A DNA stretch of 64,000 bases from a virus (lineage: Duplodnaviria; Caudoviricetes). Under the pieces are notes generated by a model, which did no database searches, was not told the DNA's origin, and was given only the letters and a program-made list of their open reading frames with translations. Below are positions 32,972 through 51,023 of this stretch, one piece after another (positions within the stretch are counted from its first letter, which is position 1; each line of letters begins with the position of its first letter). The position numbers and the translations under genes were made by a program. Where the stretch lies: IMG/VR virus record IMGVR_UViG_3300037067_019009, positions 64,001-128,000 of that record. One strand, given 5' to 3'.

Positions 32972-33228
32972 CTTAGGTTATAGGTGTGCTACTACGCTAA
33001 AGACTCCAACGGCTTCGCCTGGCTTCTTACCTTCAGACCTCGCAACGGCTAGAGGATCTTTCACCGTACCAGGTATTGTATACTACCATGGGTATACACG
33101 CAGGATACATCCGTTTTCGAGCCTGCGCTGACTTTTAACCAGGATACCTTATTCGCTTTGTACCTGGACTCCACTTGTCACTCTTTAAAGGATGGCTGCC
33201 TCTAAGCCCACCTCCCTAATAACCTAAG
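32972..33228 (-). ncRNA. 23S rRNA L11-binding-domain (H43/H44) mimic with 182-nt insert
   Basis: GGAGGUGGGCUUAGAGGCAGCCAUCCUUUAAAGAGUG [insert] CGUAGUAGCACAC, closed by CUUAGGUUAU/AUAACCUAAG. Confidence 0.8.
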
Positions 33229-42188: not shown

Positions 42189-42325
42189 TGGGTGGTGGTG
42201 GGACTCGAACCCACACGTCCTTTCGGACAGCTGTTGCTGATAACCCTAACTGTCGGCTCTTAATAGAGAGCTAGTATTCGCTAGGATGTATATACGGCCG
42301 CGTCTGCCATTACGCCACACCACCC
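42189..42325 (-). ncRNA. tRNA-Y hybrid: class II tRNA body with a permuted Y-RNA module in place of the anticodon loop
   Basis: GGUGGUG/CACCACC acceptor, D arm, GUCCGAAAGGAC variable arm, GUGGG UUCGAGU CCCAC T arm; insert AUCCUAGC..CUAGCUCU-loop-AGAGCCGA..GUUAGGGU UAUC. Confidence 0.8.
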
Positions 42326-47141: not shown

Positions 47142-47218
47142 CTAGGAAACAAAGTGGGAACTGAAGAGAGTTGTAGCACGGATCATCGATTCCAAAGGAG
47201 ATCTACCCTCTGGAATAG

Positions 47219-47295
47219 TCGGCGGGTAAGGATTTGAACCCCAGTCCTCCTACTAGTACATTACTGTAGACACTCTACCACTGAGCTACCCGCCG
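47219..47295 (-). ncRNA. tRNA-like RNA with enlarged 12-nt anticodon loop
   Basis: CGGCGGG UA GCUC AGUGGUA GAGU G UCUAC [AGUAAUGUACUA] GUAGG AGGAC UGGGG UUCAAAU CCUUA CCCGCCG A. Confidence 0.7.
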
Positions 47296-48813
47296 GTGTT
47301 TAAACTGCCCCTACTCATATGCTCCCCATAAAACCTTCAGCTCTTAACGGCGGCGTAATTTCCCACCTTTACCCAGAAGGGAACCATTTTCCTGAAGCCC
47401 CCAGTTTGAAGCTTGCACGGTATAAACACACAATACGCAGTGCTGCTACTGACTCCGACACTTATGATCTTCGTGCCGGGATATCCAAGCACCATCGTGT
47501 CACTTACTTCAATGATCTTTACAAGCTCGCAGTCTTGCTTAAGTAGCAACCTTCTTATCGCTACTTCTACTTTTGTGATCCACATTGCTAATTTCATTTT
47601 ATTTGTCCTTTTCATTATAGGCCGTACTTGTCGTAATATGCCCGCAAAAGAAAAACTTATAGTAGACTCCTACCTTCAAATCGATAAACCTTCGTCTTGG
47701 CATAGCACTTCAACCCTTTTTGTAAATCATATCCCTATAGCCTTTACTTAGCTTTCCTACTTTAACTTTTCCATGTGTTTATCCGCAATGACTTGAGGAT
47801 AATTACTAGACACGCTTATGGTTCTATTACATACTCCAACTCGGAGTCTGCCTTCTACAAAAGCATCCATGAATGATTTCTCGAATTCGTTCTCGGGTAT
47901 AATATTTATAAAAGCCGCTGTGGGATCAACTAGATTTTGCGAAAAGGTAACTTTCACTATATATTCCTTCTTACTTCTTACCACTCCAACTTATTTCCCA
48001 CTGAACTTTAAACCAAGTCCAGGGCTTATACCAACAACATCTACCAACTCTCCTAGCAGACACAGCTATAAACCTCGGGGAGGGTACGCCATCCTTCGGG
48101 CAGACTACAGGAACATTACCTCGACTAAAAACCGTCTTACATTGTGGACATTGCTCACAAAACTCGAACTTCCCCATGGTTGTGCCCCTCAGCGAGTTAT
48201 ATAATTATACGTACACGCTCTAGTTATAGAATAAGTATTGTAGATTTTGTCCTGCTACACGACATATACAGTGATGTCATCCGAATGCTGCCCCGCTGCT
48301 GCTGGTCGTTGACTACAAAAGTAGTAGGATATCCTCCCACAACTCATCAGCATCTAGTTCCCCTGTGTTCGGTTGACAGGACAAATATAAAGACAAGACA
48401 ACAAGCTATCTTGAAGGATATATTCTCGGGAGTTACATGCAAAGTAAACCCAATCCTCAACATGCTTACCCACAGGGGTGTTTCCATATTGGGAATGTCA
48501 AGATAACTACTCTACCCACAACCTTGCTCTACTGCCTTGCCTATTGATCCACCAGGAGATCATCCCTTGCAGTATCAATCTCTACTACTAGGCTACTAGA
48601 CCATTATTCTGCCACCGCAGAAAAATTAGCAATAAATAGAACAAAGACGACCAGTAGAATCTCACTGGTACCATAGTTTCCATCACAGGCGGTGGTAATA
48701 CAAGCTATAGCGGAGCCAAGGGCTCCTACTAAATCTATAATAGCAACAACTGATTTCATAACATCATACCTTCCATTCATCTAATAGAATAGACTAGCTA
48801 TAAATATAAGCCA

Positions 48814-48905
48814 TCAGCGGGGAAGGACTCGAACCCCCGACCTTGCACATGTTACAGTGCTTTCTCCTTAAATAGGAGTCGCTCTACCAACTGAGCTACC
48901 CGCTG
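48814..48905 (-). ncRNA. tRNA-like RNA with two hairpins in place of the anticodon arm
   Basis: CAGCGGG UA GCUC AGUUGGUA GAGC..CUCCU AUUUA AGGAG..GCAC UGUAACAU GUGC..GGGGG UUCGAGU CCUUC CCCGCUG A. Confidence 0.7.
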
Positions 48906-49644
48906 ACGAAACATCAAGTAAGTTATAGGCTTTCCCTCAATCCGTGACCTTACACTTTTGGTAAATCCGACGCTGACGCTCTAGGTTTTGCGCAAGATTA
49001 TGCTCTGTAAGACTCGGAATACCAAGAAACTCCCTGACACACTTCCTCTTACAGTCCATACAGTCATGTAGACTCGAAAAGCAGCAGAATTTATCGAAGC
49101 CTCCGGCATATGCGGCAAGCATCGAAGTAAGCATCTCGGCAGCGTCCTCAGGATCAAGAAATTCATATCCTACCGGGAGGCTAATATGCATACGCTGATA
49201 TATAGTCCAGTAATCCTTATTATGTTCCGGATGTGGAATGACATAACTATACCGGAACCAAGGGTCATCGTTTCGCTTATTAACACACTCGGGAATTAAA
49301 GAGATGCATACTTCCGGCATCCAGGAGGATTGTGTAATCACAATGCGCTCAGAATGTGGAACGATATCTATAATATAAAAGAAGCGGTCCTTATCATTAC
49401 CAGCGAATTGAAGTACATACTTCTTACCAGTACTGGCCTGATTAAATTCGCAAACAGCTTCTTTAATAGGAGCAATAAGCTTATCATGCAGAGCTTTCTG
49501 CTGGCTTTGAGCCTCCTCTAATTCCACAACTTTCTGCTTCTCAACACCTTGTATAAAGGACCTGGCCCTGTTTACGATACCAATTACTTCATTCATCTTG
49601 CCCATGCACTTACCCCACTTGTAGATACGCTCGCAAAAGAAGAT

Positions 49645-49871
49645 TCAGCCGGGTAGGGATTTGAACCCTCGACCTCCCGCACGTAAGTAAGATTACATAG
49701 CTATTAACTTTTTCTCAGGACATGTTGTGCGTTGGCGCCTATGGCACTCAGTACCATGCCGCTTACAAGCAGCATATATTGTCGATACTCGCAAGTTAGT
49801 TATGTTCTCTCTGCTCATGGATGTTAACCCCACATGAACAACAGGCGCTCTGTCCGCTGAGCTACCGGCTG
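49645..49871 (-). ncRNA. tRNA-like RNA with 160-nt structured insert at the anticodon
   Basis: CAGCCGG UA GCUC AGCGGACA GAGC G CCUGU [49840-49681] GCGGG AGGUC GAGGG UUCAAAU CCCU..CCGGCUG A. Confidence 0.75.
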
Positions 49872-50219
49872 ATAATTACTACTTAGAAACTGGGGTACTA
49901 TACTCTTTAAAGAACTTATATCTTAGCGGTATAGAGTTTTCACTACACCACATGCAGCCTCTATTCTTACCACTATCTTCTTGTACATCGCCCAATTATG
50001 AAATATAACAATAACATCACTACTATTGCTGGTACCGCTCCAATTATTTGGCCGGGACCATAATAAAAAGGGCCGCTACCACTATCCAATGATCTAGCAG
50101 CTTCCGCATGTTGACGTACCGTACACCCATCTTCAAGTACTACCATAGGATACAGCATAGCACTAAATAACAGACTAACCCCTATAATAATGATAACCAC
50201 AAATGCATGCTCTAGCATT

Positions 50220-50726
50220 CTATTCATTGCATATCCTTACTATTTCCTCAGCAACTTTATCGAAAGCTATCTCTTTCTGTTCCTTCGTTATCATATCGCG
50301 CAGCGTAACGATACCTTTCGCAACTTCATCATCGCCGATGATGAGCACGAACTTGGCTCCGTATTTATCCGCGAGCTTCATCTGCGATTTCAAGCTTCTG
50401 CCGGTAAAATCGGTCTCCGCTGATATATTATTCGCCCACAAATCAAGAAGTAGCGTAACAACAGCCTCTTTAGCACCTTCTCCAACAATCGCAGCATAAA
50501 CACACAACTCCTCATTCGCTAACATCTTAGCACTCGCTGCAAGCTTAGTGCATTCAAGTCCTGCTACCCCGCAGATTATATTTTCCAGATCAGAAGGTTT
50601 CACTTCTCCCTCATAGACATACCTACCAATTATCTCAGCCAATTCTGCCTCTAAGGAATGTCTTACTTCTTTACCTAAGTCGTTATATAACCCAAACTCA
50701 TCAAACAAGGGCTTAAACTCTACCAT
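50220..50726 (-). CDS. Protein with C-terminal HisRS-type anticodon-binding domain
   Basis: SLKSQMKLADKYGAKFVLIIGDDEVAKGIVTLRDM...EQ; start set at MVEFKP after GGGAGG. Confidence 0.8.
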   Translation of the reverse strand: MVEFKPLFDEFGLYNDLGKEVRHSLEAELAEIIGRYVYEGEVKPSDLENIICGVAGLECTKLAASAKMLANEELCVYAAIVGEGAKEAVVTLLLDLWANNISAETDFTGRSLKSQMKLADKYGAKFVLIIGDDEVAKGIVTLRDMITKEQKEIAFDKVAEEIVRICNE

Positions 50727-51023
50727 GGGGCCTCCCACAAGATAGGCTGGTCTAGAGGGTCTATCTAAACCAGCCTCTAACATATAGAAAGCGGATCTTA
50801 GATTAACACAAATACACAGTCCTGGCCGAGACGACCACTTGAACAGTAGTAGTATGCATTCTACTATCTGCTCTTGGGGCAATAGTCATCTGCCGCTGCA
50901 CTGTCGGCGGGGCATTACATGCGAAAGCCACGGCTATTATTATTAGCATAATGGCCAGCAAGACCATCATAGTCGGCTTAAAGAAACTTCTAAACCACAT
51001 TTTAGCACCTCCTACATCTACAT

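What the first reader, a model, noticed from the sequence alone, without database searches (positions are those of the whole stretch)
49645..49871. tRNA scaffold carrying a 160-nt structured cargo in the anticodon arm
Seen: complete 5' and 3' tRNA halves with a paired anticodon stem flank 160 nt containing several helices (UGUUCAUG/CAUGAGCA, GCUGCUU/AAGCGGC, AUGGUAC/GUGCCAU, ACAUA.CUA/UAG.UAUGU). The insert is short for a typical group I intron and no anticodon is obvious. Inference: a natural tRNA-scaffold expression device (RNase P/Z-processed, nuclease-protected) for a functional RNA, or an unusual intron. It parallels the tRNA-Y hybrid.
Basis: partly seen in the sequence, partly recalled or inferred. 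Interest (0 to 1): 0.75.

Follow-up and report, generated by a model that had tools for sequence, protein, structure and literature searches.

The report
Phage tRNA gene with orphan insert
A jumbo-phage tRNA gene with a fully intact tRNA body is interrupted at the edge of its anticodon loop by a 153-160-base insert that matches no known intron, ribozyme or RNA family, adding a relative-less example to the unexplained "enigmatic introns" of large-phage tRNAs.

Summary
On the minus strand (49871-49645) lie two complete tRNA halves with every conserved core nucleotide intact. They are separated by 160 nt.

Three corrections:
- An anticodon is visible. The last 7 nt before the 3' stem strand read CUUACGU. 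Removing 153 nt gives a 76-nt tRNA-Val(UAC) that ARAGORN accepts.
- The insert folds no better than shuffled sequence (z = -1.4).
- The body has an Arg-type D arm and one bulged A in the T stem.

The insert matches no Rfam family. It fails the group I splice-site rules, has no BHB motif, no Ro60/Y-RNA site, no second copy in the genome and no relative in any collection searched. The same sequence occurs 100% identical in two other assemblies, so it is not an artefact.

Best reading (about 0.4): an intervening sequence of the unexplained large-phage kind (Devoto et al.; noted by this scan in over 230 other genomes). It would be removed by proteins to give the phage's only Val tRNA, for its commonest Val codon. 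The phage encodes an Rnl2-type ligase.

Expression could not be tested.

The parts
49841..49871 (-). tRNA 5' half: acceptor strand C1-G7, U8 A9, D arm (GCUC-AGCGGACA-GAGC, Arg-type), G26, anticodon-stem 5' strand CCUGU (27-31)
   Evidence: The D-arm type is Arg in 52 of 53 bacterial tRNAs sharing the 22-mer and in nearly all IMG/VR carriers of the pattern.
49688..49840 (-). Insert proper (153 nt if the loop CUUACGU is kept; the boundary can slide by 1 nt because of U repeats). No family match; single copy.
49812..49840 (-). Hairpin H1 (UGUUCAUG / CAUGAGCA, 13-nt loop), abutting the anticodon-stem 5' strand with no spacer
   Evidence: mean pair probability 0.95
49797..49811 (-). 5' strand of the long-range closing helix (GAGA, ACAUA, CUA)
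   Evidence: P 0.75-0.97
49689..49703 (-). 3' strand of the closing helix (UAG, UAUGU, UCUU)
49743..49775 (-). Two adjacent local hairpins (AUGCUGCU-UGUA-AGCGGCAU and GGUAC-UGA-GUGCC). They are present in the unconstrained MFE but compete with other pairings.
49681..49687 (-). Anticodon-loop-like heptamer CUUACGU (C32 U33 U34 A35 C36 G37 U38), contiguous with the 3' stem strand
   Evidence: Only loops CUUACGU and UUUACGU pass ARAGORN at 110% threshold.
49645..49680 (-). tRNA 3' half: GCGGG (39-43), AGGUC, T arm with bulged A at 49654, acceptor CCGGCUG, discriminator A73. No encoded CCA.
49693..49833 (-). 46-codon ORF inside the insert (probably chance)
   Evidence: Weak SD compared with the phage's AGGA/GGAG sites; no Pfam hit.
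48937..49605 (-). Downstream 222-aa gene of unknown function, starting 40 nt after the tRNA 3' end
   Evidence: No family and no fold match; its homologues sit in unrelated contexts that lack the element.
50220..50882 (-). Upstream gene with a stand-alone HisRS-like anticodon-binding domain

Best explanation
This is a phage tRNA gene carrying an intervening sequence of an unclassified, non-self-splicing kind. The gene is transcribed with its neighbours and trimmed at its ends like any tRNA. The 153-nt insert sits between positions 31/32 or 32/33, at the 5' edge of the anticodon loop. It folds into a self-contained domain: one hairpin plus a module closed by a 12-bp helix. Protein nucleases cut it out and an RNA ligase rejoins the halves; the phage's own Rnl2-type enzyme is a candidate. 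The product is a 76-nt tRNA with the loop CUUACGU, that is tRNA-Val(UAC), which would read GUA. Shown: the anatomy, the absence of ribozyme hallmarks, the codon fit and the ligase gene. Inferred: transcription, excision, the enzymes and the decoding role.
For: The tRNA core is intact: 21 of 21 conserved positions and 21 of 21 stem pairs. A complete canonical 7-nt loop with U33, R37 and anticodon UAC is kept next to the 3' stem. Only excisions that restore it pass ARAGORN at a stricter threshold. After excision A35, C36, A73 and G45 are present; these are ValRS identity elements (established knowledge). GUA is the phage's commonest Val codon at 34%. The 212-kb record has no other Val tRNA. Its other tRNAs (Pro-UGG, Thr-UGU, Lys-UUU) also read A-ending codons. 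An Rnl2-type RNA ligase is encoded at genome 56640-57125. The cloverleaf-compatible fold costs only 4.6 kcal/mol more than the free MFE, and the insert closes on itself. There is precedent: 'enigmatic introns' in tRNAs of Lak megaphages, said to be probably common in large phages (bioRxiv 10.1101/356790). The element is identical in independent assemblies.
Against: There is no RNA evidence. No endonuclease was identified, and neither RtcB nor an EndA-type enzyme was found in the record, which is 84% complete. The insertion site, 31/32 or 32/33, is not a known position for bacterial tRNA introns. The body is Arg-type while the anticodon is Val. The T stem has a bulged A, unusual for an elongator tRNA. 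A heptamer with Y32, U33 and R37 arises by chance about 1 time in 16. No relatives exist, so neither conservation nor presence/absence polymorphism can be shown.
Confidence: 0.4

Rival explanations
1. Stable tRNA-scaffolded non-coding RNA. The tRNA body serves as a processing and stability handle: RNase P/Z trimming and nuclease resistance. The 160-nt domain in place of the anticodon loop is the functional part. The RNA works unspliced, perhaps as a tRNA mimic or as a partner of a phage RNA-binding protein.
For: The same phage has a tRNA body carrying a Y-RNA module in its anticodon position next to Ro60. About 25 such hybrids lie upstream of Ro60 genes in other phages, so natural tRNA scaffolds do exist in this phage group. 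All three tRNA-like genes at 47-50 kb have aberrant anticodon arms. The bulged T stem and the Arg/Val identity clash argue against a normal decoder. H1 and the closing helix are robust. A stand-alone anticodon-binding domain is encoded just upstream.
Against: The insert lacks the Ro60 site (GNCGAA with a bulged C) and the GGUUAUC motif. It matches no family. Its folding is no better than shuffles. It has no relative or second copy. It lies 7.5 kb from Ro60. This reading does not explain why a canonical anticodon heptamer is kept.
Confidence: 0.27
2. Disabled gene. A tRNA (Arg-type by descent) was hit by an insertion or illegitimate recombination in its anticodon loop. It is now non-functional, and the helices in the insert are chance.
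For: The insert is an orphan with no excess structure (z -1.4). Its complementarity to the tRNA 5' half is at chance level. The T stem has a bulged A. The identity is mixed. Distant relatives of the neighbouring gene lack the element.
Against: Every tertiary-interaction nucleotide and stem pair of the body is intact. The phage genome is tightly packed. No terminal repeats, target duplication or second copy point to a mobile DNA element. A canonical loop is retained. Interrupted tRNAs recur widely in large phages.
Confidence: 0.25
3. Highly reduced self-splicing group I (or other ribozyme) intron.
For: Group I introns are the only introns known in bacterial tRNA anticodon loops, and the 5' exon can end in U.
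Against: No Rfam hit at E <= 10 for any intron or ribozyme family. No pairing of a U-ending 5' exon with a G-ending intron restores a 7-nt loop (sequence). After the closing helix only 14 nt remain, so there is no room for P8/P7'. At 153-160 nt it is below the smallest natural group I introns (~200 nt, own knowledge).
Confidence: 0.05

Closest known systems
'Enigmatic' introns in tRNA genes of Lak megaphages and other huge phages (Devoto et al., bioRxiv 10.1101/356790; Nat Microbiol 2019)
   Same: A large-phage tRNA gene whose otherwise intact body is interrupted near the anticodon by an insert that Rfam cannot classify. The removal mechanism is unknown.
   Different: Lak introns are conserved across cohorts, show presence/absence variants, and at least one is itself tRNA-shaped. 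This insert has no relatives, is not tRNA-shaped, does not end in CCA, is longer (153-160 nt) and sits at 31/32-32/33.
Group I introns in bacterial tRNA anticodon loops (cyanobacterial tRNA-Leu(UAA), Azoarcus tRNA-Ile, Agrobacterium tRNA-Arg)
   Same: An intervening RNA within the anticodon loop of a bacterial-type tRNA.
   Different: There is no covariance-model match and no U/omega-G splice-site solution. The P3-P9 core is absent and the size is below the known minimum.
Ro60-linked tRNA-like Y RNAs: YrlA (Chen et al. 2014, PMC4201824) and the tRNA-Y hybrids of this phage group
   Same: A tRNA body combined with a foreign RNA module. The same phage encodes Ro60, Y RNAs and one such hybrid.
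   Different: YrlA is circularly permuted, with a closed acceptor stem. The hybrids carry a 20-90-nt module holding the Ro60 site next to the Ro60 gene. This element has normal tRNA ends, no Ro60 site and lies 7.5 kb away.
Engineered tRNA scaffolds for recombinant RNA (Ponchon and Dardel approach; e.g. PMC3753655)
   Same: The cargo replaces the anticodon loop on a retained anticodon stem. The acceptor, D and T arms are kept for processing and stability.
   Different: That is a laboratory design. Here no function of the 'cargo' and no accumulation of the chimera have been shown, and a natural anticodon heptamer remains.

Membership tests
tRNA (Rfam RF00005 / ARAGORN) | Cloverleaf with conserved core nucleotides and a 7-nt anticodon loop | tested here: met
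   Met only after in-silico removal of 153 nt: ARAGORN calls tRNA-Val(UAC) up to the 110% threshold, with 21/21 core positions and 21/21 pairs. The unspliced gene fails RF00005 and default ARAGORN. One bulged A in the T stem.
Group I intron | Match to group I covariance models (conserved P3-P9 core) | tested here: not met
   No hit at E <= 10 in a 501-nt permissive cmscan. By inspection there is no room for P8/P7' after the only long-range helix.
Group I intron | 5' exon ends in U, intron ends in G, and ligation restores a 7-nt anticodon loop | tested here: not met
   All combinations of U-ending 5' exons and G-ending introns give loops of 5, 8 or 16 nt (sequence).
Group I intron | Self-splicing with guanosine and Mg2+ | not testable with these tools
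   Needs an in-vitro transcript.
Archaeal/eukaryal protein-spliced tRNA intron | Bulge-helix-bulge motif at the exon-intron junctions; splicing endonuclease available | tested here: not met
   No 3-4-3 BHB can be drawn at the junctions (sequence). PF01974 is absent from the phage record. The position is not 37/38.
YrlA / Y RNA | Ro60-binding stem (GNCGAA, bulged C); for YrlA, permuted tRNA-like domain; location beside Ro60 | tested here: not met
   The motif is absent. There is no significant similarity to the phage's own Y RNAs or hybrid. The topology is unpermuted (for the definition). The element lies 7.5 kb from Ro60.
tmRNA | tRNA-Ala-like acceptor with G3.U70, no D stem, tag reading frame, pseudoknots | tested here: not met
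   ARAGORN tmRNA mode is negative. Rfam tmRNA matches only the 15-nt T loop. The element has G3-C70 and a full D arm.
'Enigmatic' large-phage tRNA introns (Devoto et al.) | Insert inside an otherwise intact tRNA gene of a large phage, not classifiable by Rfam | tested here: met
   212.7-kb virus record.
'Enigmatic' large-phage tRNA introns (Devoto et al.) | Conservation of the insert and intron-plus/intron-minus alleles among related phages | tested here: inconclusive
   No related phage carrying the tRNA was found. The only other copies are 100% identical.
Natural tRNA scaffold (stable chimera) | Accumulation of the full-length chimeric RNA and a function of the inserted module | not testable with these tools
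No family match or conservation is available for the module.

The most novel reading that the evidence does not exclude
The insert is removed by a protein-only cut-and-rejoin pathway not described for bacteria or their viruses. Host or phage RNases recognise the three-way junction formed by the anticodon stem, hairpin H1 and the closing helix, and the phage Rnl2-type ligase reseals the anticodon loop. Alternatively, the RNA is a genuine natural tRNA-scaffolded functional RNA of a new family.
Probability: 0.35. Interest if true: 0.75.

Novelty: new variant of a known kind. Interest (0 to 1): 0.45.

Why it matters
Bacteria and their viruses are thought to have only self-splicing introns in tRNA genes. 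A 153-nt insert with none of the ribozyme hallmarks, in what would be the phage's only tRNA for its commonest valine codon, implies one of two things: an undescribed protein-based tRNA splicing route, or a natural use of the tRNA fold as a carrier for another RNA. Either would be new biology and could be tested with one Northern blot or RT-PCR. The weakness of this instance is that it has no relatives, so nothing can yet be said about selection on the insert. Other examples of the phenomenon that do have comparative data are better entry points.

Tried and rejected
- **Known families:** Rfam gathering and permissive scans found nothing but tRNA T-loop fragments.
- **Relation to Y RNAs, the tRNA-Y hybrid, the 182-nt insert of the 23S-like element and the 94-nt tRNA-Lys:** local alignments are at chance level. 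Shared k-mers are trivial. A covariance model of the insert finds no second copy in the genome.
- **'Guide' pairing between the insert and the tRNA D arm or anticodon stem:** 72% of shuffled inserts do as well, so rejected.
- **Homologue hunts, all empty.**
  - blastn against 50,697 phage records gave tRNA parts only.
  - The junction 18-mer in IMG/VR gave two chance hits in coding DNA.
  - The T-arm 23-mer gave ordinary tRNAs.
  - The D-arm...T-loop architecture pattern gave tandem tRNAs and unrelated small expansions.
  - Neighbour-gene searches in IMG/VR and JGI metagenomes found nothing.
  - The 25-mer of the 5' half in metagenomes found nothing.
  - BLAST and the covariance model over 25 whole jumbo-phage records and 85 loci found nothing.
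- **Relatives of the 222-aa neighbour (48% identity):** they lack the element and share no synteny.
no insert-level similarity, and nothing alike in the 40-kb CcrColossus stretch (around the hit) that was examined.
- **Homing-endonuclease idea for the 222-aa neighbour:** no Pfam or PHROG family. The AlphaFold model (pLDDT 70) has no PDB match at E <= 0.001, and the Atlas gives no family.
- **Small ORF in the insert:** weak ribosome site and no family.
- **Promoter and terminator scan:** at background level, with no shared upstream motif among the RNA genes.
- **ARAGORN's own intron call** (tRNA-Tyr(GUA) plus a 135-nt intron): rejected because its anticodon stem and variable arm pair poorly.

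Full report
**Where it is.** The window is bases 64001-128000 of a 212,668-bp IMG/VR virus record, about 84% complete: a jumbo phage with almost all genes on the minus strand. The finding lies on the minus strand in a 367-nt gap between an 84-codon ORF (49973-50227) and a 222-codon gene (48937-49605).

**Checking the observation.** Read 5'->3' on the minus strand, the element starts with the acceptor strand CAGCCGG. It continues with U8 A9, a D arm GCUC-AGCGGACA-GAGC, G26 and CCUGU. Then come 160 nt. It ends with GCGGG, the variable loop AGGUC, the T arm GAGGG-UUCAAAU-CCCU[A]C, CCGGCUG and A73.
- All 21 conserved or tertiary-interaction positions checked are canonical (U8, A14, G15:C48, G18, G19, A21, G26:A44, the 9-12-23, 10-25-45 and 13-22-46 triples, G53:C61, U54:A58, U55, C56).
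- All 21 stem pairs are Watson-Crick or G.U.
- The one defect is an A bulged from the 3' strand of the T stem. Ordinary phage tRNAs with the same T arm read CCCUC there.
- Default ARAGORN and the Rfam tRNA model miss the gene.
- ARAGORN's intron mode gives a poor tRNA-Tyr model with a 135-nt intron.
- When the middle is cut out in silico so that 7 nt remain, ARAGORN calls a 76-nt tRNA at its default threshold for every boundary. Only the two boundaries that give CUUACGU or UUUACGU still pass at 110%.

So an anticodon is visible: the heptamer next to the 3' stem strand is a canonical loop (C32 U33 UAC G37 U38). The insert proper is 153 nt, at position 31/32 or 32/33. An overlapping-window note from this scan reached the same tRNA-Val(UAC) reading.

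- With the cloverleaf enforced, the fold costs 4.6 kcal/mol more than the free MFE.
- Hairpin H1 starts directly after the anticodon-stem strand (P 0.95). A 12-bp interrupted helix (GAGA/ACAUA/CUA with UAG/UAUGU/UCUU, P 0.75-0.97) closes the rest.
- That leaves ACUUACGU as the only single-stranded link back to the stem. The inner ~90 nt are ambiguous.
- The energies are not unusual: z = -1.39 for the insert and -2.13 for the whole element.
- The apparent pairing between an insert segment and the tRNA D arm is at chance level.

The helices are real features of the sequence but not statistical evidence of a structured RNA.

**What the insert is not.**
- No Rfam family reaches E <= 10, whether intron, ribozyme or other.
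- Group I rules fail: no U-ending exon and G-ending intron restore a 7-nt loop, and there is no room for a P3-P9 core.
- No bulge-helix-bulge motif can be drawn, and the phage has no EndA-type endonuclease.
- It is not a tmRNA.
- It is not a Y RNA, although the phage encodes Ro60 (TROVE plus Ro60 vWA domains), three minimal Y RNAs and a tRNA-Y hybrid just upstream of it. The insert lacks the bulged-C GNCGAA site and the GGUUAUC motif, and shows no significant similarity to them.
- It is single-copy and unrelated to the 182-nt insert in the phage's 23S-like element.
- The 46-codon ORF inside it has a weak ribosome site and no family.

**Comparative data.** Every route came back empty. These were GenBank phages, IMG/VR, JGI metagenomes, 25 whole Ro60-bearing jumbo-phage records and 85 loci. 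They were searched by BLAST, by patterns and by a covariance model that recovers itself at E = 3.7e-44. The exact neighbouring protein occurs on other contigs. Two of them (one ENA, one Logan assembly) are 100% identical over 1.7 kb including the element, and a third (88 kb) has the same 368-nt spacing. The interrupted form is therefore real DNA, not a mis-assembly, but there is no variation to analyse. More distant relatives of that protein (48% identity) sit in other contexts without the element.

**Identity of the tRNA.** The 22-nt 5' part is shared exactly with 53 bacterial tRNAs, 52 of them tRNA-Arg. In IMG/VR the D-arm pattern is carried almost only by tRNA-Arg genes. The body is therefore Arg-type by descent. 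After excision, however, the anticodon is UAC with A35, C36, A73 and G45. These are ValRS determinants by established knowledge, and the C35 that ArgRS needs is missing.

**Context bearing on function.**
- The record has only six ordinary tRNAs, none for Val.
- GUA is the commonest Val codon at 34%, and the other tRNAs with U34 read A-ending codons.
- An Rnl2-type RNA ligase is encoded at genome 56640-57125; RtcB is absent.
- The gene upstream of the 84-codon ORF is a stand-alone HisRS-like anticodon-binding domain.
- The 222-aa downstream gene has no family or fold match and shows no sign of being a homing endonuclease.
- The two neighbouring tRNA-like genes are also aberrant in the anticodon arm.
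- In Ro60-bearing phages, tRNA bodies carrying a permuted Y module in place of the anticodon loop are common.

**Weighing the readings.** The retained canonical loop, the Val identity set, the codon fit, the ligase and the precedent of unexplained introns in large-phage tRNAs favour an intervening sequence that is removed by proteins; I put this at about 0.4. The precedent is Devoto et al.; this scan has also noted interrupted phage tRNAs in at least 234 other genomes. The tRNA-scaffold reading (about 0.27) draws on the real tRNA-Y hybrids in the same phage group, the bulged T stem and the Arg/Val clash, but nothing marks the insert as a functional module. A disabled gene (about 0.25) fits the lack of relatives and of excess structure, but not the flawless tRNA core. 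A reduced group I intron is unlikely (about 0.05).

**Verdict.** This is a new, relative-less variant of a known but unexplained phenomenon. Interest is moderate: the biology behind such inserts is open and testable, but this instance offers no comparative handle.

Noticed in passing
window 48813-48906 (-): A 94-nt tRNA-Lys(UUU)-like gene with a long variable arm (GCAC-UGUAACAU-GUGC), which no bacterial tRNA-Lys has. Its anticodon loop is UAUUUAA, with A instead of U at position 33, and it has an A27.A43 mismatch. It could be an anticodon-nuclease-resistant variant (concept in PMC10264068) or a tRNA mimic.
   Followed up: partly
window 47218-47295 (-): The 'tRNA-Ile(AAU)' has C.C and A.A mismatches in its anticodon stem. 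AUA makes up 52% of the phage's Ile codons, so its real decoding role is unclear.
   Followed up: partly
window 42189-42325 (-) and loci L003, L024, L032, L034, L035, L042, L044, L051, L052, L056, L077: tRNA bodies carrying a permuted Y-RNA module (CUUGYCC...GGGCCGA...GGUUAUC) in place of the anticodon loop lie just upstream of Ro60 genes in many phage contigs. Unlike canonical YrlA they keep normal tRNA ends.
   Followed up: partly
window 32972-33228 (-): A stretch matching the bacterial LSU rRNA model at positions 1097-1144 (the GTPase-associated centre, E = 0.0036) is followed by a 182-nt insert with no Rfam match. That insert is unrelated to the tRNA insert.
   Followed up: partly
window 50220-50882 (-): A stand-alone HisRS-like anticodon-binding domain protein (168-220 aa; 38-39% identity to HisRS C-terminal domains) with an uncharacterised N-terminal part.
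   Followed up: partly
genome G000:C1:56640-57125 (-), outside the window: An Rnl2-type RNA ligase gene (PF09414, E = 2.3e-16). No RtcB or splicing endonuclease was found in the record.
   Followed up: no
whole phage genome: Codon usage is skewed to codons that are rare in many bacteria: GUA is 34% of Val, AUA 52% of Ile, and AGA+AGG 59% of Arg. Yet no tRNA-Arg was found, and no tRNA-Ile with an AUA-reading anticodon.
   Followed up: no
L230:7631-7745 (+) (Kordia sp. chromosome): A bacterial tRNA-like gene with an Arg-type D arm and normal acceptor and T arms, but a ~45-nt expansion between the anticodon and T arms. ARAGORN does not call it; Rfam tRNA gives 27 bits.
   Followed up: no
L133:253-500 (+) and L118 (same sequence): Two adjacent tRNA-like genes in a >110-kb phage contig, each with a ~44-nt expansion in the anticodon region.
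   Followed up: no
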